Below are positions 26,317 to 44,298 of a DNA stretch of 44,475 bases, one piece after another (position 1 is the first letter of the stretch; each line of letters begins with the position of its first letter). Both the position numbers and the translations under genes were made by a program. The stretch spans positions 1 through 44,475 of IMG/VR virus record IMGVR_UViG_3300017691_000001, one strand, 5' to 3'. The notes under the pieces are model-generated. The model was not told where the DNA came from and ran no database searches. It saw nothing but the letters and a program-made list of their open reading frames with translations. Source of the stretch: a virus.

Positions 26317-26327
26317 GTCATAACAAA

Positions 26328-27229: not shown

Positions 27230-27398
27230 GTGGCGGAAGTCCTAACGATTTTCATAATTTTAGAATTATATAAATATATAAATATATACCCCTCCCTATC
27301 TCTCCGGGGTGTATAAGGTACTCTGCACATTATGTGTGTCTGTATGCATATACGTACCTATAAGTGAAAATTGTGAAATTGTGCGCAACGTGGCGGAA
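27230..27398. promoter_or_regulatory. AT-rich, repeat-dense intergenic region; candidate replication origin and/or promoter
   Basis: (TATATAAA)x2.75 at 27267-27288 inside a 25-nt pure A/T run. GTGGCGGAA at 27230-38 and 27390-98. GTGAAA(A)TT tandem at 27364-80. Palindromes CACATTATGTG (27326-36), TATGCATA and TACGTA. Confidence 0.55.
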
Positions 27399-27432
27399 AA
27401 CTGCGGTTTTTTAGCCTTCGCGCCTCAGAATG

Positions 27433-29751: not shown

Positions 29752-29921
29752 GCCTCTACGCCCTTTAGATAATCGGATAGAGCTTTGACGGCGCTATATT
29801 TTGGTTCCGTCCTGTCCTTCACCAGATTGTACACCACCTGATATGACACGCCGCTGCGGCGGCTGACCTCCATCAGGTTGCGGTCGGAAAGCCGCTCTTT
29901 GATTTCTGGCAGCGTCAGCAC
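29748..29921 (-). CDS. Small XRE/Cro-like HTH regulator (57 aa)
   Basis: GTG 29921 preceded by GAGGGAGAA. The longer 118-aa track ORF was rejected. HTH LMEVSRRSGVSYQVVYNLVKD. Its stop overlaps the primase ATG (ATGA). Confidence 0.65.
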   Translation of the reverse strand: MLTLPEIKERLSDRNLMEVSRRSGVSYQVVYNLVKDRTEPKYSAVKALSDYLKGVEA

Positions 29922-30004
29922 TTTATTCTCCCTCGCGAAAAATGTCGCTTGACGTGTAAGCTGGTTCGCTGGCACAAGCAACCCCGCAGAGAGAAGGAGA
30001 CAGC
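29922..30004. promoter_or_regulatory. Divergent control region between the HTH/primase operon and the recombination operon
   Basis: 83-nt gap. TTGACG is present on the plus strand, and GAGAGAAGGAG is the SD for the 30005 gene. The -10 assignment is uncertain. Confidence 0.45.
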
Positions 30005-30844
30005 ATGAGCATTCTGCAAAGAGCCTCCAAGCCGGAGGCTGAACCGTTCGTCGGCACCATCGTCGGTGTACAGGGAACCGGCAAGACCAGTCTGGCTTGC
30101 ACATTCCCCGATGTGTTTATGATCCGCACGCAGGGCGAGAAGCCGCCGCAGGACATTCCCAAGAACCAAATCCCGACCACGCTTGAGGTCGACACCGCAG
30201 ACGACCTTTGGGAGGCGCTGAAGGCACTTCTGCGGGAAGATCACGGCTTCAAGACGTTGGCGTTCGACACTGCAACCGGGCTCGACATTTTGTTCACGCA
30301 AGATGTACTCGGTAAAGACCCGACTGCGCGCGGCCTGAACCAGAGCCACGGAGGCTACGGCAATGGTGCCAGCATGGTGTCGGCCATGCATATGCGCGTC
30401 CGGAAGGCTGCCGAGATGCTGCGCAAGCAGAAAGGGATGCATATCATTTTCCTGGCGCACGCCGAGATTGTGGATGTTTCGCCGCCGGATGGTGATCCGT
30501 ATTCGTCTTACTCTTTGCGGCTGCCCAAGAAGTCGATGGCCCCGTATTTGGACAGCGTCGACTGCGTGGCCTTCCTTAAGCAGGAACGCATCGTGCGCGG
30601 TGCTGTGGAGGCCAAGGGCGAGCGCGGCGCGAAACCAGGGCGGGCGATTTCCAGTGGCGACCGGGTACTAGTGACGTATCTGACGCCGGCCATGGCGTCC
30701 AAGAACCGCTACGGCATTACCGACGACCTGGACGTGGTAAAGGGTGAAAATCCCCTTGCCCCTTGGATTGGCCTTACGCCCGCCCCCGCACCCGCCGTCG
30801 AGGACGACAAGCCTGACGCCACCGACTTTGTAGAGGAGAAGTAA
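30005..30844 (+). CDS. AAA_24 / Sak4-like RecA-family ATPase (ssDNA annealing accessory)
   Basis: Walker A GVQGTGKTS, Walker B-like TLAFDTATG, IIFLAHAE. Adjacent to a DUF669-type SSB, as in Sak4-SSB pairs. Confidence 0.82.
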   Translation: MSILQRASKPEAEPFVGTIVGVQGTGKTSLACTFPDVFMIRTQGEKPPQDIPKNQIPTTLEVDTADDLWEALKALLREDHGFKTLAFDTATGLDILFTQDVLGKDPTARGLNQSHGGYGNGASMVSAMHMRVRKAAEMLRKQKGMHIIFLAHAEIVDVSPPDGDPYSSYSLRLPKKSMAPYLDSVDCVAFLKQERIVRGAVEAKGERGAKPGRAISSGDRVLVTYLTPAMASKNRYGITDDLDVVKGENPLAPWIGLTPAPAPAVEDDKPDATDFVEEK

Positions 30845-30845
30845 A

Positions 30846-31403
30846 TTGTCATTCTGGAACCTGAGCGATGATACCAGCGCAACCGATACCGGCGCGGAAT
30901 TTGACGGCGGCGGCGGCTCCATGGAGCCTATTCCGGACGGCACCACCGTCCTGGCAATGCCGGACGATGCCAAGTGGGCAGAAGATCGGCAGGGCAATGA
31001 GCATCTGTCTATCCGCTGGACGGTGCTCAAGCCGGAGGCCTATCAGGGCCGCAAGATCTTCCATAAGCTCTGGGTGTCGGCTGACAAGCCCAAGCATAAG
31101 GATCCGGTGAAGTACCGCGATAAGCAGCTCAAGATGCTGGCTGCGATCGACACGAATGCCGGCGGCAAGCTGGCGCGCAAGCAGGGCAAGCCCACGGACA
31201 ACGAACTGGCACTGGCACTGGTCAACAAGCAGATGACGCTGCGGCTGGGCGTCTGGGAGATGGAAGGCGACAACGGCCCAATGTCGGGCAATTGGGTGCA
31301 GGCCATCGGCGACAAGGCCAAGCCGGTATCCGAGGGGCAGGCTCGCAAGCCGGCGACGACGCGACCGGCATATGACGACGACCTCGATAGCATTCCGTTT
31401 TAA
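30846..31403 (+). CDS. DUF669-type phage single-stranded DNA-binding protein
   Basis: TTG start 7 nt after GAGGAG. The C-terminal acidic tip DDDLDSIPF mimics the bacterial SSB tail (DDDIPF). Confidence 0.75.
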   Translation: MSFWNLSDDTSATDTGAEFDGGGGSMEPIPDGTTVLAMPDDAKWAEDRQGNEHLSIRWTVLKPEAYQGRKIFHKLWVSADKPKHKDPVKYRDKQLKMLAAIDTNAGGKLARKQGKPTDNELALALVNKQMTLRLGVWEMEGDNGPMSGNWVQAIGDKAKPVSEGQARKPATTRPAYDDDLDSIPF

Positions 31404-31568
31404 ACCCTGACCGGACCCCGCTTTTTGGAAAGAGGGCGGGGCGAGGATTGACCGCCAAGCGGGTTGTGATAGTGTTGTGGTTCGTGAGGCTAGGCCGGCC
31501 AGCTGAAAGGGGATTTGTCATCCCTTGCCTCACGCTAACAGACAGACCCGTGACAAAGGGATTGCGCT

Positions 31569-32246
31569 ATGACTGATATTATAACTCGTAAAGAAGCGCT
31601 CGCCAAAGGCTTGAAGCGGTATTTTACGGGCAAGCCATGCAAGCACGGCCATATATCAGAGCGCACCGCTTCCGGTTGTATAGAATGCCACAATATTCTA
31701 AGCCAAGACAAATATCATCAAAACATTGAAGCTGAACACGCAAGGTCCGCAAAATATCATGCGGCAAATAAGGAGCGCGCTCGTCTTTATGGCTTGAAGC
31801 ATCGCGCTAAAAATTCGGATAAGCTGAAAGCCGTTCGCAAGGCTTATAAAGCCGCTAACAGGCAGGAGATTGCGGCAAAAGCAAAAATATACAACGCCGC
31901 TGCCCGCGATAAAATCGCTGAACGTAAAAAGAAGTATTATAGCGAAAATCGCGAACAATACCGGGTTTATGTCAGAAATCGTAGAGCGATGATGCGTGAA
32001 GCCGAGGGCGTACATACGGCTGACGACGTATTGAAAATTCTAGCGCAGCAAAAATGGCTTTGCGCAGAGCCAACATGTCGTGCGGACTTACGCAAGATAA
32101 AGCGACACGTTGATCACATTATGCCGCTTTCTTTGGGCGGAAGCAATTGGCCATCAAATCTTCAATGCCTTTGCCATGCGTGCAACCGCAGCAAGTGGGC
32201 AAAAACGCCTGAACAATGGGCTCAACAGAACGGGAGGCTTCTATGA
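31569..32246 (+). CDS. HNH endonuclease (free-standing, homing-type)
   Basis: HVDHIMPLSLGGSNWPSNLQCLCHACNRSK. N-terminal RYFTGKPCKHGH...C..C zinc-ribbon-like segment. The gene is visibly AT-richer than its surroundings. Confidence 0.88.
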   Translation: MTDIITRKEALAKGLKRYFTGKPCKHGHISERTASGCIECHNILSQDKYHQNIEAEHARSAKYHAANKERARLYGLKHRAKNSDKLKAVRKAYKAANRQEIAAKAKIYNAAARDKIAERKKKYYSENREQYRVYVRNRRAMMREAEGVHTADDVLKILAQQKWLCAEPTCRADLRKIKRHVDHIMPLSLGGSNWPSNLQCLCHACNRSKWAKTPEQWAQQNGRLL

Positions 32247-33118
32247 TTATGCAGGGCACAGACGCTTGGCATCAAGCCCGTATCGGTCGGGTTACAGGTT
32301 CTACAGCGGGAGCAATTTTGGGCTTGTCCCCATTTGCAACCCGCGCAGATACTATGCGCGCTATGGTTCGCGCTGCCAAAGGCGCACCGTCCGAGTTTGT
32401 AACCAATCCCGCCGTGGAATGGGGCAAGTTCAACGAAGCTGGAGCTATTGCCGAGTTTGAAATGGAAACCAGCGAACGCGTCACGCCGGCACCTTTCATT
32501 CCTTACGATTGTTGGCTGGGGGCGTCGCCAGACGGCTTTGTCAGCGACGGCAAGCTGCTAGAAGTCAAATGCTTGTATGGCATTCGAAATGACCCAGAGC
32601 CTGAATTTAAGCAGGTTTCGGAATACCCACATTATGTCGCTCAAATGAATATAGAGGCATATTGCGCTGGCGTGCAGTCTGTCTGGTTTTATCGTTGGAC
32701 GCCGTATGCAACATGTTTGAAACTGCACCATCGCGATGATGATTGGCTAAATGCCAACTTGCCAGTGCTGAAGCAGTTTTGGTCCGAATATGTTGATACC
32801 ATCAACGACCCTGAAGCGTGCGCCGAACACCTAGCCCCCCTCCGCCAGGTCATCGACACGCCCGCAGCGCACCAGATGGTCGCGGAATACGACCAGCTAT
32901 CCGAGGCGATCGAGCTGGCGACGGAGCGGAAGAAGGAAGTCTTGGCGGAGATTGCGGCGCTGGCCAAGGGGCAGGATGCCCTCATTGCCGGGCGCAAGCT
33001 GACGAAGGTGGAGCGGGAAGGCGCGGTGTCCTATGCCAAGGCGTTGAAGGCGTTGGCCCCTGATGCGGATCTGTCGCAGTGGAAGGGTAAGCCCTCAAGC
33101 CACTGGCGGCTTGGCTGA
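32243..33118 (+). CDS. YqaJ-like (lambda Exo family) recombination exonuclease
   Basis: ATG 32243 after GGGAGG, ATGA overlap with HNH. Motifs GTDAWHQARIGRVTGSTAGAILG and SPDGFVSDGKLLEVKC. Confidence 0.85.
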   Translation: MIMQGTDAWHQARIGRVTGSTAGAILGLSPFATRADTMRAMVRAAKGAPSEFVTNPAVEWGKFNEAGAIAEFEMETSERVTPAPFIPYDCWLGASPDGFVSDGKLLEVKCLYGIRNDPEPEFKQVSEYPHYVAQMNIEAYCAGVQSVWFYRWTPYATCLKLHHRDDDWLNANLPVLKQFWSEYVDTINDPEACAEHLAPLRQVIDTPAAHQMVAEYDQLSEAIELATERKKEVLAEIAALAKGQDALIAGRKLTKVEREGAVSYAKALKALAPDADLSQWKGKPSSHWRLG

Positions 33119-34920
33119 TGTTCACGCCCCGCCCCTATCAGGCCGCCGCTATCGACGCCGCGAAAGCCGAACTCCGGCAAGGCGTCGACCCCATACTGAT
33201 CGAAGCCGCCACGGGTGCCGGCAAGTCGTTGCTGATCGCATATCTGGCCGAATGGCTACATGATATCAGCGGCGGCAAGAAGGTGCTGTGCCTGGCACCG
33301 CAGCGCGAGCTGGTGATCCAAAACGCCGCCAAGTACAAGGCGCTGGGTGCGCCCTGCTCGCTGTTCTCCGCCAGTGCCGGGGCAAAGTCCACACGCCATG
33401 CGGTCATATTCGGTACGCCCGGCACCGTGTCACGGTCTATCTCGCGTTTTCTGGATGGCTATTGCGCTGTCGTGGTGGACGAGGCCCATGGCATGACGCC
33501 GACCGTGCGCAGCATTATCGAGGCCATGCAGGCGGCTAACCCCCGTCTGCGGGTCATCGGGACCACTGCGACGCCTTTCCGTCTGGGGGAGGGCTATATC
33601 TACCGTATCGACCCGGATGGAAAAGCCAATGGCGATGATACGTGCCGCGACCCGTACTTTCTGAAATGCGTCTATCGCATCCAGGCGCAAGACCTGATCG
33701 ACCAGGGGTATCTGACCCGGCCGGCGGTATCGGCCACGGGGGCCGCCGCCTATGACACATCAGGCTTGCAGCTACAGCGCAACGGTCATTTTGCTCCTAG
33801 CGCGGTGGACCAGGCTTTCGTCGGTCATGGCCGCAAGACCGCCAGCATCGTGGCGGACGTAGTGTCGCGCGCGGGAGGGGCGATGGGCGTGGTGTTCTTC
33901 GCTGCAACCATCCAGCACGGGCAGGAGATTTTGGCGTCTCTGCCCCCCAGCCTGTCGGCGCTGATTACTGGCGGTTCCAAAGATCGCGAGGGCATCTTGC
34001 GGCGCTTCGAAGCCCGCCAGCTCAAATATCTGGTCAACGTCGGCGTACTCACCACCGGCTGGGATTGCGCGCATGTCGACGTGATCGCGATCCTGCGCAA
34101 GACGGAAAGCGTCGGCTTGCTTCAGCAGATCATCGGCCGGGGCTTGCGCCTTCATCCTGACAAGCAAGAAGTCCGCATCATGGACTATGCCGGCAATATC
34201 GAGGATCATTGCCCGGACGGCGACCTGTTCGCGCCGATCGTGAAAGCCCGTGGCGGCAAGGAAGCCGGTGGCGAGGTGAAAGCCGAATGCCCGGCCTGCG
34301 GCTATGAGAACGAGTTCACGCGACATAAGGACGCAGAAGGCTATACTCTCGACAAGAACGGCTATTGCCTGGATGTGTGGGGCGCGCGGGTCGAGACGGA
34401 ATATGGTCCCATGTCTGGCCATTACGGCCGGCGTTGTTTCGGAATGGTGCGCATGGTCGGCAATGACGGCCGGCACGATCGATGCAATTACCGCTGGACC
34501 TCCAAAGCCTGCGAGGCGTGTGGCGCGGACAATGACATTGCGGCGCGCTATTGCCGGGAGTGCAAGGCGGAGATTGTTGATCCTAACGAAAAGCTGACCG
34601 CCGACTTCCAAGCCATGAAGAAAGACCCGCACCACCCACAAACGGATGTGGTTCTGTCATTGGAGCTTAAACCGTCCGTATCGCAGAAGGGCAATGCCGT
34701 GGTGCGTGCGGATTGGGTGACGCCCTATCGCCGTTTCAGTACCTGGCATCAGCCTGAGGCGACATTTGCCAAGGCAAAGGCGGACTGGTCGCGGTTCGAC
34801 GCTGCTACCAGAGAAGGGCAGCCTGATACGGTGTCTTACGTCAAAGAAGCCGGATCGTCCTTCTACCGCATCCTGGCCTTCAATGAGCCGGCCGACGAAT
34901 TGGAGAGCATGGCGGCATGA
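33118..34920 (+). CDS. SF2 DEAH-box DNA helicase with C-terminal zinc-ribbon region
   Basis: Motif I EAATGAGKS, II VVVDEAHG, III GTTATPFR, VI QQIIGRGLR. Cys pairs CPACG..., CEACG...CRECK. Confidence 0.9.
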   Translation: MFTPRPYQAAAIDAAKAELRQGVDPILIEAATGAGKSLLIAYLAEWLHDISGGKKVLCLAPQRELVIQNAAKYKALGAPCSLFSASAGAKSTRHAVIFGTPGTVSRSISRFLDGYCAVVVDEAHGMTPTVRSIIEAMQAANPRLRVIGTTATPFRLGEGYIYRIDPDGKANGDDTCRDPYFLKCVYRIQAQDLIDQGYLTRPAVSATGAAAYDTSGLQLQRNGHFAPSAVDQAFVGHGRKTASIVADVVSRAGGAMGVVFFAATIQHGQEILASLPPSLSALITGGSKDREGILRRFEARQLKYLVNVGVLTTGWDCAHVDVIAILRKTESVGLLQQIIGRGLRLHPDKQEVRIMDYAGNIEDHCPDGDLFAPIVKARGGKEAGGEVKAECPACGYENEFTRHKDAEGYTLDKNGYCLDVWGARVETEYGPMSGHYGRRCFGMVRMVGNDGRHDRCNYRWTSKACEACGADNDIAARYCRECKAEIVDPNEKLTADFQAMKKDPHHPQTDVVLSLELKPSVSQKGNAVVRADWVTPYRRFSTWHQPEATFAKAKADWSRFDAATREGQPDTVSYVKEAGSSFYRILAFNEPADELESMAA

Positions 34921-35303
34921 CTTACAAGGTATACGGCACCCCCACTCCAGACCCATCCCCATCCGAAAAGGTGGAAATGGCTAGCTTCTTTAACCGCCTG
35001 CGTCGCCAATACCCCCATTTGGGAGCTATCGCGCTGCACATCCGCAACGAGGGTAAGCGCAGCGCCATGCAGCAGCAGGCGATTGTCGGCGAAGGTGGCT
35101 TTGTGAAGGGCGCGTCGGATGTGATCATTCCCGGCGCGCCCACATTTGTTATGGAGATGAAGTCGCGCGCAAAAACCGCTAAGGTATCGAAAGAGCAAGC
35201 AGCGTATTTGGAAACCGCAGCCGCTGCCGGGGCTTTTGCCTGCGTGGCGCTGGGGGCCGTTGCCGCGTGGGAGGCGCTGGAGGAGTGGAGGGACAAGCTA
35301 TGA
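34917..35303 (+). CDS. VRR-NUC domain nuclease
   Basis: PD-(D/E)xK pattern GASDVII...FVMEMKSRAKTAKVSKEQAAYL. Follows the helicase, as in many phage replication modules. Confidence 0.82.
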   Translation: MTYKVYGTPTPDPSPSEKVEMASFFNRLRRQYPHLGAIALHIRNEGKRSAMQQQAIVGEGGFVKGASDVIIPGAPTFVMEMKSRAKTAKVSKEQAAYLETAAAAGAFACVALGAVAAWEALEEWRDKL

Positions 35304-35419
35304 CAGAGCCAGTTCCATGCCCTAAATGCGAAGGCCAAGGCCGCATATGGGTCTACCGTATCGACGACAGGCGCTATCCTATTCCCTGTCCTAAATGCAA
35401 AGGCCGTGGCATTGTCTGA
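35300..35419 (+). CDS. Mini zinc-ribbon protein (39 aa) with two CxxCxGxG motifs
   Basis: Hand-found: MTEPVPCPKCEGQGRIWVYRIDDRRYPIPCPKCKGRGIV. ATGA overlap with VRR-NUC. Confidence 0.55.
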   Translation: MTEPVPCPKCEGQGRIWVYRIDDRRYPIPCPKCKGRGIV

Positions 35420-35669
35420 AACCCACCCCGTCCACTGGTGGCTGACCGAAGTCCTGTCCGGCCGCATCGCCCTGAAAGACGCGCCTGCCTCTATTCAGAG
35501 CTGGGCGCGTTTCCCCATATTCGAAGGCGCAAAAGAGATCATCTGTTTGCCAGATCAGGTTCAAAGAAAAGCCGCACTAGCCAAGATCCCCCCGGCTGTG
35601 CGGCCCTATATTGAGGCGGAGATTGTGCGGCTGTGGCCTATGCGGGTGGAACTACGCCACCACCTCTAA
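35406..35669 (+). CDS. Hypothetical protein (87 aa)
   Basis: GTG-start ORF. Its 3' end overlaps the convergent gene 35652..36089 by 18 nt. Confidence 0.5.
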   Translation: MALSETHPVHWWLTEVLSGRIALKDAPASIQSWARFPIFEGAKEIICLPDQVQRKAALAKIPPAVRPYIEAEIVRLWPMRVELRHHL

Positions 35670-36089
35670 GCCCACGCTCTCGCAAGCCGCCTGAAATTGC
35701 GCGGGGTCGCGTATCCAATGCGCCCCGGTTTCTAGCTGGCGGCGAAGGAGGGCGTCGCACGCAAAACTTAGCAGTTCCCGCTCCATATTACTGTCATAAG
35801 CAGAACCCAGGCCGCGCGCTGCCGGCGGCAAATCGTCATGCGGTTTACCAGTGGAAATGCCGTGCGCCACCAAGTGCACGATGCGTTGACAACCTCTGTT
35901 CCATCCGAGATTGCAAACCTCAACGGCTATGGCTTTCTTTCCTCGCAACGACCGTATGACATGCGATACGGCTTGATTGCTGACGCCCAAATCCTTGGCT
36001 ATCACCTCTCTGCGAGGGCATGGCTGATCCTCCAAAGCCAGTTTCAAGACGTAATTGTAGAACGCTCGCTCTTTCGGCGTCATCATCAT
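35652..36089 (-). CDS. LexA-N-terminal-like winged-HTH DNA-binding protein without a peptidase domain (145 aa)
   Basis: TPKERAFYNYVLKLALEDQPCPRREVIAKDLGVSNQAVSHVIRSLRGKKAI parallels the LexA DNA-binding domain pattern (LTxRQxEV..I....G.PP...EIA..LG..S..AV..HL..L..KG.I). Last gene of the antisense operon. Confidence 0.7.
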   Translation of the reverse strand: MMMTPKERAFYNYVLKLALEDQPCPRREVIAKDLGVSNQAVSHVIRSLRGKKAIAVEVCNLGWNRGCQRIVHLVAHGISTGKPHDDLPPAARGLGSAYDSNMERELLSFACDALLRRQLETGAHWIRDPAQFQAACESVGLEVVA

Positions 36090-36349
36090 GCCGAAACCCT
36101 CCCGTTATGCCCGCACCAGCCGCGTGCACCACAACGCCCACAAGGGGCGTAGGGAAGGGTGGAGCGGATTTGCAAACCATCTACGCCACTGTCTGTAGCA
36201 ACCCGGTTAAATTGTGGCTTCATCTGCCGCTCAACACGGGAGCCGATCAGAAACCCTGCGACCTTGTCCATCTCGGCAACTGTGCGGTGCTTACCCAAAA
36301 ACGGCTGATATCCGACCAAATGGCCGTCTTCCATGACTGCTACTAGCAT
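36086..36349 (-). CDS. Hypothetical protein (87 aa), middle gene of the antisense operon
   Basis: ATG with TAATG upstream and ATGA downstream couplings. C-terminal CGRCGARGWCGH Cys cluster. Confidence 0.55.
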   Translation of the reverse strand: MLVAVMEDGHLVGYQPFLGKHRTVAEMDKVAGFLIGSRVERQMKPQFNRVATDSGVDGLQIRSTLPYAPCGRCGARGWCGHNGRVSA

Positions 36350-36546
36350 TATGCTTTCCTCTCTTCGAACTTGGGTTCCGGCTTGCCTTCCGTCAGCGCC
36401 AGCAAGTCAAGGCTTTTCCAGTACAGGCGCGGCACGCCGTTTTGCCGCCAATTCTGCCAGCCTCGCTTGCTGAGGTTGTAATGACCGCGAACAATCGTTT
36501 CACCGATTGCTTCGATCGCCGGAGCGTGGGGGTGTTTGGTAGCCAT
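36349..36546 (-). CDS. Cro/YdaS-like small HTH regulator (65 aa), apparently leaderless
   Basis: ATG 36546 chosen (MATKHPHAPAIEAIGETIVRGHYNLSKRGWQNWRQNGVPRLYWKSL...). Resembles the Cro/YdaS pattern (A..lG.s...VsqW....iP). No SD. A -10-like CATATC ends 7 nt upstream of the ATG. Confidence 0.55.
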   Translation of the reverse strand: MATKHPHAPAIEAIGETIVRGHYNLSKRGWQNWRQNGVPRLYWKSLDLLALTEGKPEPKFEERKA

Positions 36547-36634
36547 GGCGCAGGATATGCGCGCCTTGAAGAGGAATGGCAACCGCAAATTATGCGTAAT
36601 TATCGTTGACAGGCGCAGATTGTGCGCCCATACC
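36547..36634. promoter_or_regulatory. Divergent switch region: two operator-like inverted repeats over back-to-back promoter candidates
   Basis: IR-1 GCGCA-GGATA-TGCGC (36548-62). IR-2 GGCGCA-GATTG-TGCGCC (36612-28). Rightward TTGACA (36606-11), 17 nt (= IR-2), CATACC (36629-34). Leftward TTGCCA (rc of 36577-82), 17 nt, CATATC (rc of 36554-59, inside IR-1). Also AATTA-TGCG-TAATT (36588-601). Confidence 0.55.
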
Positions 36635-36658
36635 ACCATCACAGAGAAGGAGCACCCC

Positions 36659-36916
36659 ATGCAAACGCAAGACGATATCATCGCCGCCATCCAGCGCTTG
36701 CCGCTGACGGACCAGATCAACATCATGCATAAGGTAGCGCAAGGCAGCGACTTCGACAGCATCGCCAACCACCTGGCCCATGAGCTGGAAAGCGTCCTCA
36801 CGCGCATGAAGGATGATGCCCACGACGCGGCGGTGATGGAGCAGACGCGGTTGCATGGTCATGAGGTGAGCTATCTCACGCTGGTTCACAATCGTAACGG
36901 CGGGGTGTGGCTGTGA
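36659..36916 (+). CDS. Hypothetical protein (85 aa), first gene of the rightward accessory operon
   Basis: ATG 36659 preceded by GAGAAGGAG. The upstream part of the longer track ORF spans the operator region. Confidence 0.62.
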   Translation: MQTQDDIIAAIQRLPLTDQINIMHKVAQGSDFDSIANHLAHELESVLTRMKDDAHDAAVMEQTRLHGHEVSYLTLVHNRNGGVWL

Positions 36917-37092
36917 CCCGCATCCGTTATCAGGGCCGCGACTATCATACCCCGGCGTATATGCCGGTGCAGGAAAGAGAGAGGATCGAGGGGATGAACA
37001 AGGAATTCGACCGGGGCAGCACATGGGCTATGTTGCTGGCTGTGTGCGCCATTTTCTGGTGCGCGGTGTTTGCATGGATTTTCGCAGCATGA
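36907..37092 (+). CDS. Small C-terminally membrane-anchored protein (about 59-61 aa)
   Basis: GTG starts at 36907 or 36913 (GTGA overlap). TM segment WAMLLAVCAIFWCAVFAWIFAA. Confidence 0.5.
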   Translation: MAVTRIRYQGRDYHTPAYMPVQERERIEGMNKEFDRGSTWAMLLAVCAIFWCAVFAWIFAA

Positions 37093-37286
37093 CCGCCCCT
37101 CAGACTGTGGCCGATGTGCTGGCAACGGGCCGCTTCCTGCTTGATCGATTGGTTGACCATGAGGTCCGCATGACCAGCGACGAAGATGCCCGCGAGTGGT
37201 TCGGACATGTCACGCCCGCAATGGAGCGTTTCCGCGCCGCCCTTCGCGCAGCCGCCACCTCCGCCCGTCAGGGAGAGACGAAGTGA
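37089..37286 (+). CDS. Hypothetical protein (65 aa; alternative ATG at 37074)
   Basis: ATGA overlap with the upstream stop. Confidence 0.5.
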   Translation: MTAPQTVADVLATGRFLLDRLVDHEVRMTSDEDAREWFGHVTPAMERFRAALRAAATSARQGETK

Positions 37287-37699
37287 GCCGGTCGGGATAT
37301 AGCGACGACATCGACCACTGGGCGATGATCCGTTGGCGCGGGCAGGTCGCGAGCGCAATCCGAGGTAAGCGCGGGCAACAGTTCCTGCGTGACCTGGTCG
37401 CCGCTCTGGATGCGATGCCGGAGAAGCGACTGATCACGAACAGCTTGGAAGAGGGCGGCAACGTCTGCGCGATCGGTAGCGTCGGCAAGGCGCGTGGTGT
37501 GGACATGACGGGCCTCGACCCGGACGATAGCGGGACCGTCGCGCACGCTTTCAACATCGCCGACCAGTTGGCGCGCGAGATCGTCTACGAAAATGACGAG
37601 GGGCCGTACGCAGAAACGCCGGAGCAGCGCTGGTCACGGATGCGCGCTTGGGCTGCTGCGAACCTCTCCGCCCGTCAGGAGACCCGACATGGTGAATGA
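37283..37699 (+). CDS. Hypothetical protein (138 aa)
   Basis: GTG after GGGAGAG (GTGA overlap). WRGQVASAIRGKRGQQFLRDLVAALDAMP...VCAIGSVGKARG is a motif I recall from phage proteins of unknown function. Confidence 0.62.
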   Translation: MSRSGYSDDIDHWAMIRWRGQVASAIRGKRGQQFLRDLVAALDAMPEKRLITNSLEEGGNVCAIGSVGKARGVDMTGLDPDDSGTVAHAFNIADQLAREIVYENDEGPYAETPEQRWSRMRAWAAANLSARQETRHGE

Positions 37700-37994
37700 G
37701 AAGCTGCTGCCGTGCCCGACACCGTGGTGCGACGACGAGGAAAAGTACGTATGGCAGGGGCCAGATGACCGCTTCCGCATCATCTGCGGGTGCTGTCAGG
37801 TCGAAGGGCCGGCTGCCGATGACCAGCAAGAAGCCATCGCCGCCTGGAACACCCGCGCACCGGCTGATCTGCGGTCGGCGCTGGAGACGATAGCAAAGAC
37901 CGGTGAAGGCTGGGGCACGTCTGGGGATGGTCACGCCAAGTGCATCCAGATCGCCCGCGCAGCCCTCGCCCCGACCAAGGAGCCCGCAGCATGA
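37689..37994 (+). CDS. Lar-family restriction-alleviation-like protein (101 aa)
   Basis: MVNEKLLPCPTPWC...RIICGCCQVEGP...QQEAIAAWNTRAP fits the Lar pattern (L.PCP.C ... C..C..gP ... eAi.aWN.R). Confidence 0.7.
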   Translation: MVNEKLLPCPTPWCDDEEKYVWQGPDDRFRIICGCCQVEGPAADDQQEAIAAWNTRAPADLRSALETIAKTGEGWGTSGDGHAKCIQIARAALAPTKEPAA

Positions 37995-38317
37995 CCAAGT
38001 ATCGCAAGAAGCCGGTCGTAGTCGAAGCCGTACAAGTGGTCGCGTCTGATTGGAACGGCTCTAGCTTCGACGGATCGCCGTTCAGCGCTCATCCGGGCTG
38101 GCTTCTAGAGGCAGTAAAAACAGGCGCTCTTGTGCCTGTCACCCCAAACAGCACCGACTACGCTGAATGGGAAGTCCGCACGCTGGAAGATGGTGCTGAC
38201 GGCAGGGCCAAGCATATCGCCACCCCCGGCGACTGGATCATCCGGGGTGTCCAAGGCGAACTCTACCCCTGCAAGCCCGACATCTTCGCAGCCACCTATG
38301 ATGAGGTGCAGTCATGA
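37991..38317 (+). CDS. Hypothetical protein (108 aa)
   Basis: ATGA overlap. MTKYRKKPVVVEAVQ...PGDWIIRGVQGELYPCKPDIFAATYDEV is a recurrent phage family of unknown function. Confidence 0.65.
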   Translation: MTKYRKKPVVVEAVQVVASDWNGSSFDGSPFSAHPGWLLEAVKTGALVPVTPNSTDYAEWEVRTLEDGADGRAKHIATPGDWIIRGVQGELYPCKPDIFAATYDEVQS

Positions 38318-39159
38318 CCAACACGACCACCGATGCCGCAGAGGCGCGGGCAACTGCGCTCGCAGAGTGCGCCGCTATCGCAGAACGCTGGCGGGACGAG
38401 AACAAAGCATCCGCCGCAAAGGCTCGTAAGTCGGCACGTGTTCGCGGCGACAACGGTATGGCTGACCAGCTTGAAGGCGCTGCCATCGAATGCAACGCCA
38501 TCGCGCAGGAAATCCGCCGTCTCGCCACCGCCGAAGCCGCGAGCGGGGCGGGGGAGCGGGAGGAGTGGAGCTTCACTCCTGACACGCGCGAGGCGAAAGC
38601 CGTTGCGCAACTATCCGAAGAGCAGGAGCTATCGCCCCAAGCCGTTATGCGGCAGGCGTTGCGGCTGTACCAATCGGATTTCCTTCGGCGCAAAGCTGGC
38701 GAGACGGTCACATGGTCCGGCGATGCGCAGCGCGCTCGTGACTTTGCTGGTCCGCTCGCCTCCCTCCCGCCCGCGACTGACCCCGCGATGGTGCTGGACG
38801 GCAATGACATCTGGGAAGCGCTGTTCGGCATCATGCGCGGCAACGTGCCGGACGAAATGACCGAAGAGGTATGCAGCCAGCTTGCCGCCGCCCTCGCAGT
38901 CGCCCCGACCATCCCAGCTACGGGGGAGGCGGTGGTGGTAGAACGAGCAGCCGCAATCGTTGAACGGGGCTTTCGCTGCCGGACCTGCGATGTGGTTTTC
39001 GTCGAGGATCACGCTGACATCATGGGTGGCCACCCGGATAACGGGTGCGCCGCTCCAAACTGGGATGCGCTGGATGACATAGGCAAGGTTGCGGCCATTC
39101 GTGCCCTCGCCACCATCCCAGCTACCGGCCATGCAGCGACCGAGGGGGAGGGGGCGTGA
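38314..39159 (+). CDS. Hypothetical protein (281 aa) with a ribbon-helix-helix-like segment and a duplicated TIPATG motif
   Basis: LSPQAVMRQALRLYQSDFL is RHH-like. APTIPATGEA and LATIPATGHA are repeated. There is a CRTC...GC Cys cluster. Confidence 0.68.
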   Translation: MTNTTTDAAEARATALAECAAIAERWRDENKASAAKARKSARVRGDNGMADQLEGAAIECNAIAQEIRRLATAEAASGAGEREEWSFTPDTREAKAVAQLSEEQELSPQAVMRQALRLYQSDFLRRKAGETVTWSGDAQRARDFAGPLASLPPATDPAMVLDGNDIWEALFGIMRGNVPDEMTEEVCSQLAAALAVAPTIPATGEAVVVERAAAIVERGFRCRTCDVVFVEDHADIMGGHPDNGCAAPNWDALDDIGKVAAIRALATIPATGHAATEGEGA

Positions 39160-39323
39160 AGCCGCGCGATGGCATCCGCTTCGTTGCGGCACTGATCGCG
39201 GCGAAACTGGCTGACGGCGCAACCGCGCTGCTGTTTGACGGCTATCGCGCCGATCCGGTGACAGCATGGATCATGGCAGCCTTAGTCACGATCCTGTGGG
39301 CTATCCGGGAGCCACGTCCATGA
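39156..39323 (+). CDS. Possible small membrane protein (55 aa)
   Basis: Hand-found GTG ORF that fills the gap exactly with GTGA and ATGA overlaps: VKPRDGIRFVAALIAAKLADGATALLFDGYRADPVTAWIMAALVTILWAIREPRP. Confidence 0.45.
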   Translation: MKPRDGIRFVAALIAAKLADGATALLFDGYRADPVTAWIMAALVTILWAIREPRP

Positions 39324-39598
39324 CCCCGCCAGACCCCCAGCAGGTAGCCGAGATCGCGGGGCGCTTGAGCAAGGCGCAGCGGGAGGCGGTTGCCGGCGCG
39401 CAGCAGATGACCCCGTTCATGTACGGCCCTGACATTTACGAAGTCAGGGCGGGCGGGGCGACCGTGGCCATGTGCAAGAAGGGGCTGATCCGCGACCGTG
39501 AATTTCGAAGCCTGACCGGCAAATCACGGCGCACTTACGTCCTCACCCCGCTCGGCCTCGCCGTCCGCAACTTCATCCAAGGAAATTCCCATGACTGA
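39320..39598 (+). CDS. Hypothetical protein (92 aa), possibly winged-helix-like
   Basis: ATG 39320 (ATGA overlap). KKGLIRDREFRSLTGKSRRTYVLTPLGLAVRNFI is suggestive of a wHTH. Confidence 0.55.
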   Translation: MTPPDPQQVAEIAGRLSKAQREAVAGAQQMTPFMYGPDIYEVRAGGATVAMCKKGLIRDREFRSLTGKSRRTYVLTPLGLAVRNFIQGNSHD

Positions 39599-39890
39599 CC
39601 ATTTCAACGGGCTGTCCCCGGCAGAGGCAGAGCGGCTAGCTATGCTTGCGGAAGAAGCAGGCGAAGTGATCCAGGCCATCGGTAAGGTGCTGCGCCATGG
39701 ATACGCCAGTACGCATCCAGATGGCGGCGCAGACAACCGGGCGCAGCTTCATCGTGAGGTGCTCGACTTCACGACCGTGGCGCAGGCTATGGTCGCCGCA
39801 GGCGATCTGACACAGCTTGCTAAGACGCCGGACATTTGGCGGAAAAAGCTCCGCTACAGTCATCATCAGAAGGCTCGCGGCCATGACTGA
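39591..39890 (+). CDS. MazG-like nucleotide pyrophosphohydrolase (all-alpha NTP-PPase)
   Basis: AERLAMLAEEAGEVIQAIGKVLRHG carries the EExxE metal-binding signature. The size, 99 aa, is typical of phage MazG-like proteins. Confidence 0.72.
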   Translation: MTDHFNGLSPAEAERLAMLAEEAGEVIQAIGKVLRHGYASTHPDGGADNRAQLHREVLDFTTVAQAMVAAGDLTQLAKTPDIWRKKLRYSHHQKARGHD

Positions 39891-40329
39891 TCTGATGGAG
39901 CTGGCCTCGCGCGTGGAGGCGGGAATAGCGTCGCGTGAGCTTGAGATGCGCATCAAGGCTGCTGTTTATGGCGGCGTGGCGTTGCAGTCGCCTTTCAACG
40001 GCGAGTGGTGCATCTACCGGGCAGGGACTACCGATGCCCGGACTGGCAAAATCATGGAGCGGCCGCGTTTAATTGCGCACGCAGACTGGCTGAGGGATAG
40101 CTATATGACCTCCGCTGACGCCGCCATGCAATTGCCACCGGGAGACGAGTGCTGGCGTGTCGGCCATGATGCGGATGACCCAAGCTGGTTCATGGCACAG
40201 TGCAGCTACACGCCCGAACCCGGCAAAATGGGCTTCATCGTAGGGCGTGGTGATACAGCCGCCGCCGCCCTCACCGCAGCCGCCCTCCGCGCCCGCGCCC
40301 ACCAAGGAACCGCCCATGTCGAACAGTGA
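39883..40329 (+). CDS. Hypothetical protein (148 aa)
   Basis: ATG 39883, in frame within track ORF 39817..40329. Confidence 0.6.
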   Translation: MTDLMELASRVEAGIASRELEMRIKAAVYGGVALQSPFNGEWCIYRAGTTDARTGKIMERPRLIAHADWLRDSYMTSADAAMQLPPGDECWRVGHDADDPSWFMAQCSYTPEPGKMGFIVGRGDTAAAALTAAALRARAHQGTAHVEQ

Positions 40330-40504
40330 TATTCTCTCCGCCCGTCAAGCCGCCGCAGCCGCGTATCCCGACTTTTTGGTTGACACCAAGGGGCGTCAGC
40401 ACCGATGCATACCGCGAGAGGCTATTTTGGCGGGCAAATATGATGATGGCGATGTTGTGAGGCGGCATATCGTCCCCGCATACCCCCAGGGGAGGGCGGC
40501 ATGA
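40316..40504 (+). CDS. Hypothetical protein (62 aa)
   Basis: ATG 40316 within track ORF 40247..40504. Confidence 0.5.
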   Translation: MSNSDILSARQAAAAAYPDFLVDTKGRQHRCIPREAILAGKYDDGDVVRRHIVPAYPQGRAA

Positions 40505-40851
40505 AGGCGCTGCTATTGCTCGCCGGCCACGCGCTGTGCGATTATCCGTTGCAGGGCGACTTCCTGGCCAAAGCGAAGAACCGCGCCGCCCCGCTGCCGG
40601 GTGTGCCATGGTATCAGGCGCTTGGTGCGCATGCTCTGATCCATGGCGGCATGGTGGCGCTGGTCACCGGCTCGACGCGCATGGGCATCGCCGAGACGGT
40701 CATTCACGCCATAACCGACGACCTGAAGTGCAAGGGGCGGCTGTCGTTCGATCAGGATCAGGCGATCCACATCGGATGCAAGATTCTGTGGGCCGCTCTC
40801 GCCACCCCCACCGCAGGTATCCCGGACACTACCCAGGATGGGAGAGCGTGA
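40501..40851 (+). CDS. DUF3307-like membrane protein
   Basis: GHALCDYPLQGDFLAKAKNR matches the H.l.D(F/Y).lQ...mA..K signature. Hydrophobic segments are present. Confidence 0.65.
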   Translation: MKALLLLAGHALCDYPLQGDFLAKAKNRAAPLPGVPWYQALGAHALIHGGMVALVTGSTRMGIAETVIHAITDDLKCKGRLSFDQDQAIHIGCKILWAALATPTAGIPDTTQDGRA

Positions 40852-41111
40852 TGCGAATGAGCGACCGTCGCTACCATGTTCCGACCAGTGCTCCTGTCGG
40901 GCGTATCCAGATGCGCGCTAGGCGAAAAGTGGATGCCAGAAAGCGCATGAAGCCGAAGTCTTGGCCCTCTGCCTTTTGGTTCGCCTCCGACCTATTCGCG
41001 CGGGGGAATGCCACCCGCAGGCTCCGTTTCATGGAGCTAGCTCCGCACCTTTTCACCACCCCGCCACCCTGCGGACTGGCACCCGCATCCTCCGAGGGAG
41101 ATAGAGAATGA
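40851..41111 (+). CDS. Possible basic hypothetical protein (86 aa)
   Basis: The ATG shares a base with the upstream TGA. Arg/Pro-rich composition makes coding status uncertain. Confidence 0.4.
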   Translation: MRMSDRRYHVPTSAPVGRIQMRARRKVDARKRMKPKSWPSAFWFASDLFARGNATRRLRFMELAPHLFTTPPPCGLAPASSEGDRE

Positions 41112-41290
41112 CGGACTGGATACCGTGGGATGGTGGCCGATGCCCGGTCCATCCTCGCGCGCGAGTTGTTTGCCGGCTCGGCAACGGCATCGTCATGAAA
41201 GCGGCGATGGCGAAGGGGCGAGACTGGAAGCGCTATGAGGGCGATATGAAGGGCTGGCAGATTACCGCGTACTACGAGGTGCCCGCATGA
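41108..41290 (+). CDS. Hypothetical protein (60 aa)
   Basis: ATGA overlap. The WIPWDGGRCPV motif recurs in phage small proteins. Confidence 0.58.
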   Translation: MTDWIPWDGGRCPVHPRARVVCRLGNGIVMKAAMAKGRDWKRYEGDMKGWQITAYYEVPA

Positions 41291-41604
41291 CCCAGACCAC
41301 CGACGCCGCGCTGGTGGAGCTACTTCGCGGAATAGCCTACGTCGCCGGCCCTGATAGCCAGCAAAATGGCATGGCGCTCGACAGTGAAGAGGCGGGCCTG
41401 CTGACTGCTTACATCGAAGCACAGGCCCGCCGGATCGAGGCGCTGGAGGGGGCTCTGCGGCCGTTTGCAAAGGCTGGGGCGATTGCCGGCGAGCGCGACC
41501 CGCGATGGGACTTTTACGCTTACCGTCCGGCTGCTGGTGATGAGTATGCAATTATGGGCGATCACCTGCGCACTGCAAACGCTACCCTAGGAGACGCCCC
41601 ATGA
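41287..41604 (+). CDS. Hypothetical protein (105 aa)
   Basis: ATGA overlap. No motif recognised. Confidence 0.6.
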   Translation: MTQTTDAALVELLRGIAYVAGPDSQQNGMALDSEEAGLLTAYIEAQARRIEALEGALRPFAKAGAIAGERDPRWDFYAYRPAAGDEYAIMGDHLRTANATLGDAP

Positions 41605-41723
41605 CCCCGACCCTTCTCGCCCTAGCCTATACAGCCATGGATCAAGGGGAGTGGTGGGTTGCTGTGGGGGTGGTGGGGCTGGCAGTGGTGGGGCAGATTG
41701 GAGGACATGATGGAGCCGAATAA
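41601..41723 (+). CDS. Possible small membrane peptide (40 aa)
   Basis: Hand-found: MTPTLLALAYTAMDQGEWWVAVGVVGLAVVGQIGGHDGAE. ATGA overlap. Confidence 0.4.
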   Translation: MTPTLLALAYTAMDQGEWWVAVGVVGLAVVGQIGGHDGAE

Positions 41724-42030
41724 GATGCAGTGGCCCGACATGGCGGATGCGCCGAAGGATCGGCCTATCCTGCTGCTAGTGAATGACTTTGGCGAGGGTG
41801 ATCACGACGCCAATCTCGGCAATGTCGTGATCGGGCGCTGGCAGGACCGATGGGGCCGTGAGAACGAACTGATGCCGGTGGAATATCAAGGATGGGTGTC
41901 AGACATCAAGACCCATGAACAGTCTCAAGCGCCGATGCAAACCAAGCTCAACCCGATCGGCTGGTATGATCTGATCCACCCCGCGCTCCCCGTCCATATT
42001 CAGCCGCCGGCCGCAATCTACCAGTCGTGA
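41707..42030 (+). CDS. Hypothetical protein (107 aa), DUF551-like
   Basis: ATG after GGAGGA. W..(D)..P.DRPILLL...W...GW...NPIGWYDL pattern. Confidence 0.58.
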   Translation: MMEPNKMQWPDMADAPKDRPILLLVNDFGEGDHDANLGNVVIGRWQDRWGRENELMPVEYQGWVSDIKTHEQSQAPMQTKLNPIGWYDLIHPALPVHIQPPAAIYQS

Positions 42031-42151
42031 GGCACCGCCGCCTCCTAGCCGTCATGGCCCTGCTATGCGGGATGCTGGTGGGGATGATGGGGTGGGTGCT
42101 GATTAATGGGCGCTAGTGGAAGCTAGTGGGTTTGTGCTTTCGAGTATGAAT

Positions 42152-42216
42152 TGGCAGGGCTGCGGGGGCTCGAACCCCGCAAAGTCACGGCGCGCTTTCC
42201 GTGAAACCCCAGCCCG
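42152..42216 (-). ncRNA. tRNA-like element: acceptor-like stem, one hairpin, canonical T-arm and 3' GCCA. It has no D-arm and no canonical anticodon loop.
   Basis: Minus strand: c-GGGCUG-ggguu-UCACGG-aaagcgcg-CCGUGA-cuuug-CGGGG-UUCGAGC-CCCCG-CAGCCC-u-G-CCA. Stems 42215-10/42162-57, 42204-199/42190-85 and 42179-75/42167-63. The 7-nt loop TTCGAGC fits the T-loop consensus. Confidence 0.5.
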
Positions 42217-42234
42217 ACGCTGTTGCCCTATAAT

Positions 42235-42335
42235 GCTGCGGGCGTAGCGGGGAATAGCACGCAGTCCGACAGTGCTGTCATCCGCCAGCCGCCGTCCGCA
42301 ATCGGACTTGAAGACGATCACACCTCGCCCGCAGC
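42235..42335 (-). other. Long-range perfect 10-bp helix enclosing nested or alternative stems, adjacent to the tRNA-like element
   Basis: gctgcgggcg (42235-44) / cgcccgcagc (42326-35). Inner pairs agtccga (42263-69) / tcggact (42302-08), and agcac (42256-60) / gtgct (42272-76). Confidence 0.5.
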
Positions 42336-42394
42336 GTGCCAGACCTACCCCGTCGTTCAACGGATCACCCTAGCCATAGAATCATGCCACAATC

Positions 42395-42413
42395 CCCCTT
42401 GACAGGCAAGGGG
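42395..42413 (-). terminator. Hairpin immediately after the stop of the glycoside hydrolase gene (candidate late-operon terminator)
   Basis: Minus strand TGA-cat-CCCCTT-gcctgtc-AAGGGG-gattgtgg. 6-bp stem, 7-nt loop, weak U-tract. Confidence 0.45.
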
Positions 42414-42416
42414 ATG

Positions 42417-44285: not shown

Positions 44286-44298
44286 GCTCGCTGTCCTA

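What the first reader, a model, noticed from the sequence alone, without database searches (positions are those of the whole stretch)
35652..36658. Antisense three-gene regulator operon with paired operators over back-to-back promoters, in a phage with no integrase
Three translationally coupled minus-strand genes are embedded in the plus-strand early region: a Cro/YdaS-like 65-aa gene, an 87-aa gene with a Cys cluster, and a LexA-DBD-like 145-aa gene lacking a peptidase domain. The 112-nt divergent gap holds two inverted repeats with the same half-sites, GCGCA-N5-TGCGC. IR-2 fills exactly the 17-bp spacer of a rightward TTGACA/CATACC promoter. IR-1 covers the -10 of a leftward TTGCCA/CATATC promoter, whose transcript would start at the ATG (leaderless, as for lambda cI from PRM). 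This looks like an immunity switch. Yet I see no integrase, excisionase or partition genes, and the repressor candidate lacks an autocleavage domain. Alternative reading: an anti-defence operon autoregulated by a terminal HTH (acr-aca-like architecture), since Aca proteins bind paired IRs in their own promoter.
Basis: partly seen in the sequence, partly recalled or inferred. Interest (0 to 1): 0.62.

Follow-up and report, generated by a model that had tools for sequence, protein, structure and literature searches.

The report
Cro-only early control region of phage
This is the two-way early control region of a probably lytic Sphingomonas-type phage: a small Cro-like protein most likely binds three mirror-image DNA sites to throttle both early promoters. 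It is an ordinary kind of phage regulator built from rare protein families.

Summary
Three overlapping minus-strand genes of 65, 87 and 145 aa are real and under purifying selection. These sites sit on conserved promoter hexamers, TTGACA-17-CATACC rightward and TTGCCA-17-CATATC leftward. The leftward -10 ends 7 nt before the ATG.

Across 11 related loci the sites follow the 65-aa gene: they are present in 7 of 7 loci with that Cro type and absent in 4 of 4 with other types. They do not follow the 145-aa winged-helix gene or the 85-aa divergent gene. The 65-aa protein is a distant relative of Cro proteins that face cI-S24 repressors in Novosphingobium prophages.

This complete genome has no S24 repressor, integrase, resolvase, transposase, ParA/B or protelomerase. 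It is therefore a Cro-only early control region, not a bistable immunity switch. The 87-aa gene occupies a variable slot. The 145-aa protein combines a LexA-like winged helix with an undescribed 35-aa C-terminal module shared by about 40 small phage proteins.

The scan has noted the same kind of region on other DNA (e1-3269246, e1-1969359).

The parts
36349..36546 (-). g65: 65-aa Cro-like four-helix HTH protein, first gene of the leftward operon and probable operator-binding autoregulator
   Evidence: The AF2 model has pLDDT 81 and four helices, with the HTH at 16-23/27-36. hhalign of the g65 family gives 94% probability against a Novosphingobium Cro that faces cI-S24. It gives 93% against a YdaS/P22_Cro/NF046037 member. 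The operators co-vary with this gene only.
36086..36349 (-). g87: 87-aa accessory protein with conserved HRTVAE and C-x2-C-x5-C-x-H motifs, sitting in a variable slot
   Evidence: Only three clusters were found in 5.8e9 proteins. The motifs are conserved in alignment A2. Homologues lie in other phage early regions, next to a methyltransferase or a VRR-NUC gene. The gene is absent or replaced in most related cassettes.
35652..36089 (-). g145: winged-helix (LexA-DBD/MarR/DnaD_N-like) N-domain, then a linker, then a conserved C-terminal module of about 35 aa (LLRRQLETGAHWIRDPAQFQAACESVGL)
   Evidence: In the AF2 model residues 1-55 have pLDDT 80-90 with an H-H-H-beta-beta fold. Foldseek finds only generic wHTH folds. 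The profile scores E = 0.13 against the LexA DBD in PDB. The module is shared with about 40 proteins.
36548..36562 (.). O1: GCGCAGGATATGCGC, covering the leftward -10 and abutting the g65 ATG
   Evidence: It is invariant in 5 of the 7 type-A loci aligned; L003 and L004 change the outermost base.
36583..36597 (.). O2: cCGCAAATTATGCGt, a weaker middle site abutting the leftward -35 and centred at about -44 from the g65 start
   Evidence: In relatives it reads GCGCA-N5-TGCGG (L013, L015).
36613..36627 (.). O3: GCGCAGATTGTGCGC, filling the 17-nt spacer of the rightward promoter
   Evidence: The half-sites are invariant in all type-A loci, while one central base varies.
36554..36582 (-). Predicted leftward promoter: -35 TTGCCA (36582-36577), 17-nt spacer, -10 CATATC (36559-36554), then 7 nt to the A of the ATG (leaderless)
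   Evidence: Sequence. The same geometry occurs in L003 (TTGCCA-17-CATATC-7-ATG) and in L009 (TTGACG-18-CATATA-6-ATG).
36606..36634 (+). Predicted rightward promoter: TTGACA-N17-CATACC
   Evidence: Sequence. The hexamers are kept in Cro types A, B and C although the spacers differ.
36659..36916 (+). 85-aa first gene of the rightward accessory early operon (SD GAAGGAG at 36646-36652); it occupies the cI position but has no HTH
   Evidence: No Pfam, PHROG or NCBIfam family was found. It is 94% identical in loci that carry other Cro types and lack the GCGCA sites.
35406..35669 (+). Last gene of the plus-strand replication/recombination operon; its 3' end overlaps the 3' end of g145 by 18 nt, with no intrinsic terminator between them
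   Evidence: A homologue lies in the same convergent position in L020.

Best explanation
The region is the central early control region of a phage that carries no recognisable lysogeny genes, so it is probably virulent. The likely host family is Sphingomonadaceae.

Proposed mechanism:
1. Host RNA polymerase starts two divergent early transcripts. One runs rightward into an accessory operon (the 85-aa gene through a Lar-like gene and beyond). The other runs leftward as a probably leaderless mRNA for g65-g87-g145.
2. g65 is a Cro-like HTH protein that probably acts as a dimer. It binds three 15-bp dyad sites (GCGCA-N5-TGCGC).
3. O3 lies in the spacer of the rightward promoter and O1 lies over the -10 and start site of g65's own promoter. 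O2 lies between them.
4. As g65 accumulates it turns down both early promoters. This gives negative autoregulation and an early shut-off, as lambda or P22 Cro does during lytic growth.

There is no partner maintenance repressor, so the region is not a lysis-lysogeny switch. g87 is an exchangeable accessory gene. g145 is a separate winged-helix protein whose DNA target is not these operators.

What is shown: the sites, their uniqueness, their conservation, their co-variation with g65, the homology of g65 to prophage Cro proteins, and the absence of lysogeny genes. What is inferred: binding, repression of both promoters, the dimer, and the leaderless start.
For: - Site statistics: the only two perfect sites in the genome are both in the gap, against 0.40 expected genome-wide. 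A third core site lies between them.
- Footprint: operator half-sites and promoter hexamers vary at 4 of 52 columns, the rest of the gap at 23 of 66 (p = 4e-4).
- Co-variation: the sites are present in 7 of 7 loci whose g65 is at least 75% identical, including L009 at 72-75%. They are absent in 4 of 4 loci with Cro type B or C. Yet the 85-aa gene is 94% identical in L018 and L020, and the winged-helix gene variants occur with all Cro types.
- Homology: the g65 family scores 94% hhalign probability against a Novosphingobium Cro that diverges from an HTH+S24 repressor. That protein and three relatives are NF046037 members with weak YdaS/P22_Cro hits. The g65 model is a four-helix HTH with pLDDT 81.
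- Temperate relatives: the major capsid protein is 61-67% identical to genes in Sphingomonas and Novosphingobium chromosomes that have integrases nearby.
- No lysogeny genes in this complete genome.
- In L003 and L009 the g65 homologue heads the long early operon that runs into a YqaJ exonuclease. This is the classical Cro position.
Against: - There is no experimental or transcript evidence.
- g65 itself gives no direct Pfam, PHROG, NCBIfam or PDB hit. Foldseek matches are not significant.
- Both -10 hexamers are weak by the E. coli consensus and were not called by the promoter scan.
- The co-variation rests on few independent lineages, essentially two type-A lineages against types B and C.
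- O2 at about -44 could activate rather than repress.
- Absence of known lysogeny domains does not prove a lytic lifestyle.
Confidence: 0.68

Rival explanations
1. Aca-like damper of anti-defence or accessory genes. On this reading the main job of the HTH and operators is to restrain very strong early promoters that drive counter-defence cargo. The cargo would be g87, the Lar-like gene and other small genes of the rightward operon, as Aca proteins do for acr operons.
For: The inverted repeats lie over the regulator's own promoter. The rightward operon carries a Lar-type restriction-alleviation domain (E = 2.9e-6). The slot after g65 is variable, like a cargo slot. Bidirectional Aca regulation has been described (PMC12282945, abstract seen).
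Against: The regulator that tracks the operators is the first gene, not the last. Its relatives are Cro partners of cI-S24 repressors. In L003 and L009 the same regulator heads the replication/recombination operon. No known acr or anti-defence family was recognised in g87 or g145. Mechanistically this reading overlaps with the best explanation and differs mainly in purpose.
Confidence: 0.13
2. True immunity switch without integration. Here g145, the LexA-DBD-like protein, would be a maintenance repressor of a non-integrating prophage or carrier state, and g65 would be its Cro-type antagonist at shared operators.
For: There are three operators between divergent promoters, as at lambda OR. g145 has a winged-helix DNA-binding domain. 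Structural relatives are temperate.
Against: g145 is co-transcribed downstream of g65 in the same operon, which cannot give mutual exclusion. Its recognition helix differs in L003 and L013 although the operators are the same, and is similar in L005 where the operators are absent. No S24 domain, ParA/B, protelomerase or integrase was found. Relatives of the C-terminal module lie beside replication and RusA genes, not in immunity regions.
Confidence: 0.07
3. Controller-protein-like dual regulator. g65 would first activate its own leaderless promoter from the weaker upstream site O2 (centre about -44). It would then repress through O1 at higher concentration, giving a delayed pulse as C proteins of restriction-modification systems do.
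For: The arrangement matches: a small HTH protein, a predicted leaderless transcript, a weak -10, and sites at about -44 and -9 from the start (geometry). C-protein systems share this layout (own knowledge; the related papers PMC6765115 and PMC9638921 were listed but not read in detail).
Against: O2 is the least conserved site, and in L009 the site spacing differs (20 bp). There are no restriction-modification genes beside it. The activator role is untested.
Confidence: 0.08

Closest known systems
Cro and the OR/OL operators of lambdoid phages (lambda, P22, 434)
   Same: A small HTH protein is encoded as the first gene of an early operon. About 100 nt between divergent promoters hold three imperfectly repeated dyad operators. 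Sites overlap the -10 and the spacer. The regulator and operators are exchanged together as a cassette between otherwise near-identical phages, as in imm-type mosaicism.
   Different: There is no cI-type repressor and no integrase. The gene opposite is an 85-aa non-HTH early gene. The Cro mRNA, rather than the cI mRNA, is predicted to be leaderless. The half-site GCGCA and the protein family are different.
NCBIfam NF046037 (carph-isopro domain) together with Pfam YdaS_toxin PF15943 and P22_Cro PF14549 small HTH proteins
   Same: The length, four-helix layout and the W-x3-G-(I/V)-P motif match. Profile-profile probability to members is 93-94%. Members sit opposite cI-S24 repressors in Novosphingobium prophages.
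   Different: g65 itself does not reach any of these models. Its closest relatives score only E = 0.0065 to 0.058.
Aca autorepressors of anti-CRISPR operons (PMC6765145, PMC9410906)
   Same: An HTH protein represses its own strong early promoter through inverted repeats.
   Different: Aca genes lie downstream of the cargo, whereas the regulator here comes first. No known acr is present. The family relationship points to Cro.
LexA N-terminal DNA-binding domain and other winged-helix domains (for g145)
   Same: The fold is H-H-H-beta-beta. The best PDB sequence match is the LexA DBD over residues 3-57 (E = 0.13). In L022 a clear LexA_DNA_bind gene (E = 1e-9) lies directly upstream of a gene that carries the same C-terminal module.
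   Different: There is no S24 peptidase domain. The match is not significant for g145 itself. The C-terminal module has no described counterpart.

Membership tests
Lambdoid cI/Cro bistable immunity switch | Small Cro-type HTH gene next to multiple dyad operators shared by divergent promoters | tested here: met
   Three GCGCA-N5-TGCGC-type sites lie in the 112-nt gap. They co-vary with g65. Binding itself is inferred.
Lambdoid cI/Cro bistable immunity switch | Divergently transcribed maintenance repressor (HTH plus S24 or equivalent) | tested here: not met
   The complete genome has no PF00717 match. The divergent gene is an 85-aa protein with no HTH family hit. Temperate relatives do have cI-S24 in that position.
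Lambdoid cI/Cro bistable immunity switch | Means of prophage maintenance (integrase, transposase, or partition/telomere functions) | tested here: not met
   There are no matches to PF00589, PF00239, PF00665, PF02195, PF01656 or PF16684.
YdaS/P22-Cro-like HTH (PF15943, PF14549) and NF046037 | Score over the curated HMM threshold | tested here: not met
   g65 gives no hit. The L009 homologue scores E = 0.058 and the type-B homologue E = 0.0065, both below the cut-off.
YdaS/P22-Cro-like HTH (PF15943, PF14549) and NF046037 | Remote homology and fold consistent with the family | tested here: inconclusive
   hhalign gives 93-94% probability to two members but only 54-64% to two others. The model has four helices. 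Foldseek matches are not significant, although YdaS-annotated phage proteins appear among the top hits.
Aca (anti-CRISPR-associated) autorepressor operon | HTH regulator encoded downstream of the anti-defence cargo, binding inverted repeats in the operon promoter | tested here: not met
   The inverted repeats are present, but they track the first gene (g65), not the terminal winged-helix gene.
Aca (anti-CRISPR-associated) autorepressor operon | A recognised Acr or anti-defence gene in the operon | not testable with these tools
   No Acr library was available. g87 and g145 match nothing in Pfam, PHROGs or NCBIfam.
LexA-type repressor (g145) | LexA_DNA_bind winged helix | tested here: inconclusive
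   The profile scores E = 0.13 against PDB 1lea. The 185-aa relatives have weak PF01726 and DnaD_N hits. Foldseek finds generic wHTH folds.
LexA-type repressor (g145) | S24 autocleavage domain | tested here: not met
   There is no PF00717 match. The C-terminal part is a two-helix module instead.

The most novel reading that the evidence does not exclude
The C-terminal ~35-aa module of g145 (LLRxQLxTGxHWITDPxxFxxxCxSVGL, always at the extreme C-terminus) may be an undescribed effector domain of phages of Sphingomonas-like hosts. It would couple interchangeable DNA-binding heads to one conserved partner. The heads seen are LexA-like wHTH, GcrA/Myb-like, plain HTH, zinc ribbon, or none. Candidate partners are RNA polymerase, a replisome component or ClpXP. 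The terminal -AA tail present in about half the members fits a ClpX-type degron that would make these early regulators short-lived. If so, g145 would be a timed, self-destructing early regulator or replication adaptor, not a repressor.
Probability: 0.25. Interest if true: 0.55.

Novelty: new member of a known kind. Interest (0 to 1): 0.3.

Why it matters
The locus gives a clean natural experiment in which operator sequence follows one of four neighbouring genes. It identifies the regulator, its 15-bp site and its promoters in an uncultured group of phages whose capsid-gene relatives lie in Sphingomonas genomes. It also shows that a Cro-type control region can persist in a phage without a repressor or integrase.

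This helps when calling lifestyle from metagenomic phage genomes, because a cro-like gene with operators is not evidence of temperance. The only feature that looks new is the conserved C-terminal module of the 145-aa protein.

Tried and rejected
- Direct family searches of g65, g87 and g145 in Pfam, PHROGs and NCBIfam gave nothing above threshold.
- PDB sequence searches gave only marginal hits. I rejected as chance the g87 match to HI1388.1 (E = 0.02) and the single-sequence g145 match to eIF5A.
- Foldseek of the g65 model against PDB and BFVD was not significant.
- The megablast of 25000-44475 against phages found only an unrelated 74-nt Gordonia phage match.
- The search for related loci with the full-length alignment A5 failed for lack of a conserved stretch. 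It worked with the module alone.
- The module was not found in 201 genomes sampled from the class of Sphingomonas albertensis, and in only 2 of 301 sampled Sphingomonadaceae genomes at E about 1e-8 (a third, weak partial match, E 8.4e-4, not counted).
- A search for g145 target repeats inside or near its gene, and in the second divergent gap at 29.7-30.0 kb, found nothing convincing.
- There were no Rfam matches in 35300-37100.
- I rejected the idea that the 85-aa divergent protein or g145 binds the operators, on the co-variation table.
- I rejected a toxin-antitoxin reading because the middle gene is exchangeable.

Full report
WHAT THE WINDOW IS

The window is a complete 44,475-bp virus record with direct terminal repeats.

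- The late genes lie on the minus strand. PHROG matches identify terminase, portal, scaffold, major capsid, head-closure and endolysin genes.
- A primase-type gene also lies on the minus strand.
- A plus-strand block at 30005-35669 carries Sak4, SSB, HNH, a RecE-like exonuclease, a helicase and a VRR-NUC-like gene.
- A second plus-strand block from 36659 onward carries small accessory genes, including a Lar-type domain.

The three genes of the finding lie on the minus strand between these two plus-strand blocks.

CHECK OF THE OBSERVATION

- **Genes.** They are at 36349-36546 (g65), 36086-36349 (g87) and 35652-36089 (g145), overlapping by 1 and 4 nt. Against a 96%-identical relative, most codon differences are synonymous: 8/1, 13/2 and 24/6. 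All three genes therefore encode proteins.
- **Operator sites.** GCGCA-N5-TGCGC occurs only twice in the genome, and both copies are in the 112-nt gap, against 0.40 expected genome-wide. A third, weaker site (core CGCA-N5-TGCG, 36584-36596) lies between them. Centre-to-centre spacings are 35 and 30 bp.
- **Promoters.** A generic sigma-70 scan does not call them.
- **Conservation.** Among seven type-A loci, operator half-sites plus the four hexamers vary at 4 of 52 columns. The rest of the gap varies at 23 of 66 (p = 4e-4). The central five bases of the sites do vary, which is what one expects of dyad operators.

WHICH PROTEIN READS THE SITES

Homologues of all three proteins are extremely rare, with 3-4 clusters each in 5.8 billion proteins. 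Their contigs nevertheless provide a natural experiment.

- The 85-aa divergent gene and the winged-helix gene recur in all of these loci.
- The small first gene comes in three unrelated or distant types: A (g65), B (L005, L018) and C (L019, L020).
- The GCGCA sites are present in 7 of 7 loci with type A. This includes L009, whose g65 is only 72-75% identical but keeps the helix LSKRGWQNWR.
- The sites are absent in 4 of 4 loci with type B or C.
- Loci L018 and L020 lack the sites although their 85-aa gene is 94% identical to the window's.
- The 145-aa and 185-aa variants of the winged-helix gene occur with the different Cro types: 145/144 aa with A and B, 185 aa with A, B and C.

So g65 and the gap are exchanged together as a cassette, as immunity regions are among lambdoid phages. 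g65 is the only candidate whose specificity follows the DNA. The rightward hexamers TTGACA-N17-CATA(C/A)C are kept in all three types although the spacer changes. A TTG(C/A)C(A/G) box lies 35-36 nt upstream of the ATG in types A and B. This supports real promoters and a leaderless g65 message.

WHAT g65 IS

No library model reaches g65 directly.

- Its AlphaFold model is a confident four-helix bundle with a helix-turn-helix (pLDDT 81).
- Foldseek gives nothing significant, although YdaS-annotated phage proteins appear among the top viral hits.
- A profile of the g65 family alone aligns with 94% probability to an 86-aa Novosphingobium protein, and with 93% to a 54-aa phage protein.
- Both of those proteins are NF046037 members; the 54-aa phage protein also has weak YdaS and P22_Cro hits.
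- The Novosphingobium protein, and a second one in a prophage that shares portal, head-closure and capsid genes with the window, each diverge from an HTH+S24 repressor gene.

g65 is therefore a distant member of a Cro family used in true switches of temperate Sphingomonadaceae phages.

LIFESTYLE

- Capsid relatives at 61-67% identity lie inside Sphingomonas and Novosphingobium chromosomes with integrases nearby.
- The window itself has no integrase, resolvase, rve transposase, S24 peptidase, ParA, ParB or protelomerase.
- Its only other HTH_3-like stretch is the small gene in front of the primase.

The cI position is taken by an 85-aa protein with no DNA-binding signature. The region is thus a Cro-only control region, and the phage is most likely virulent. 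Absence of known domains cannot prove this.

THE OTHER TWO GENES

**g87.**
- It keeps HRTVAE and a C-x2-C-x5-C-x-H motif.
- Its slot is variable. It is empty in L003, L013, L014 and L018-L020. It holds an unrelated 100-aa gene in L005 and an unrelated 87-aa gene in L009.
- Its own homologues sit in other phages next to a methyltransferase or a VRR-NUC gene.
- It is best read as an accessory early gene.

**g145.**
- It has a winged helix and a strongly conserved C-terminal stretch.
- An exhaustive profile search found 72 proteins. About 30 of them share only that C-terminal stretch, and always at the very C-terminus.
- The stretch follows GcrA/Myb-like, HTH or zinc-ribbon heads, or no head at all. 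No Pfam, NCBIfam or PDB entry covers it.
- In other phages the module gene lies after a Cro/CII pair and before a clamp-like gene (L021). In L022 it lies directly after a separate LexA_DNA_bind gene and before RusA. In L023 it lies before RusA and a replication initiator.
- Sixteen of 34 members end in -AA, against 0.7 expected.
- Its function is open. I regard it as a second DNA-binding protein tied to the early or replication programme.

MECHANISM PROPOSED

Both early promoters fire on entry. g65, translated from a leaderless mRNA, then accumulates and binds O3 (rightward spacer, centre about -22) and O1 (own -10, centre about -9), with O2 assisting. This shuts down both early operons.

The leftward operon ends 3'-to-3' against the replication operon with an 18-nt overlap and no intrinsic terminator. 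Repression of the leftward promoter may therefore also relieve convergent transcription into the replication genes. That last point is speculation.

COMPARISON AND VERDICT

The region works like lambdoid Cro at OR/OL, and like Aca or C-protein autorepressors, but it fails the membership tests for a cI/Cro immunity switch and for an acr-aca operon. The scan has noted the same kind of Cro-only, leaderless, two-way control region on other DNA (e1-3269246, with GCGCA half-sites 20 bp apart as in L009, and e1-1969359). This is a new member of a known kind, of modest interest. The undescribed C-terminal module of g145 is the only new feature.

Noticed in passing
window 35652-35780 (g145 residues about 105-145); also P0011-P0076, L021-L023, L038-L039: A conserved C-terminal module of about 35 aa (LLRxQLxTGxHWITDPxxFxxxCxSVGL) ends some 30-40 small phage or prophage proteins. 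Their N-terminal heads are unrelated: wHTH, GcrA/Myb-like, HTH, zinc ribbon, or none. No Pfam, NCBIfam or PDB counterpart was found.
   Followed up: partly
A5 members: 16 of 34 module proteins end in -AA (0.7 expected) and 24 of 34 end in -A, with tails of different lengths. This resembles a ClpX-type C-terminal degron. It is untested, and the sequences are related to one another.
   Followed up: partly
L022 3450-4108: In a temperate phage that has cI-S24, a clear LexA_DNA_bind winged-helix gene (E = 1e-9) lies directly upstream of a separate gene carrying the module. This looks like a split version of the g145 architecture.
   Followed up: partly
L005 385-480 and L018 about 1690-1825: In relatives with Cro type B the gap is shorter. 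The two -35 hexamers lie back to back and themselves form an inverted repeat (CGTCAA-N6/7-TTGACA), which could be a single shared operator.
   Followed up: no
L005 664-966: The middle slot holds a 100-aa gene that looks GIY-YIG-like by eye (IYAIV...YIGRT...R...H...E..W). Pfam gave no supporting hit.
   Followed up: partly
window 35652-35669: The leftward operon and the plus-strand replication operon converge with an 18-nt overlap of their 3' ends and no intrinsic terminator. In L003, L018 and L019 the recombination genes are instead co-directional with the Cro gene.
   Followed up: partly
3' ends of the Cro genes in window, L003, L013, L018, L019, L020: All three Cro types end in E(E)RNPQ or EERKA, just before the next gene. 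This suggests a shared recombination joint at the right edge of the exchangeable cassette.
   Followed up: no
L024/L025 (Sphingomonas sp. R86520 contig_1 ends and contig_3, 42,829 bp): A capsid relative (67% identity) and the same integrase hit appear both at the ends of the 4.4-Mb contig and on a separate phage-sized contig. This may be an excised or circular copy of a prophage.
   Followed up: no
L036 1389-1482 (Novosphingobium prophage cI/Cro gap): A perfect ATACG-N5-CGTAT dyad lies about 10 nt upstream of the Cro ATG. It has the same 5-N5-5 geometry as the window's sites.
   Followed up: no
window 29763-29870 (-): The only HTH_3-like stretch in the genome (E = 2.3e-5, below the cut-off) is the small gene just upstream of the primase. 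It sits at the second divergent gap.
   Followed up: no
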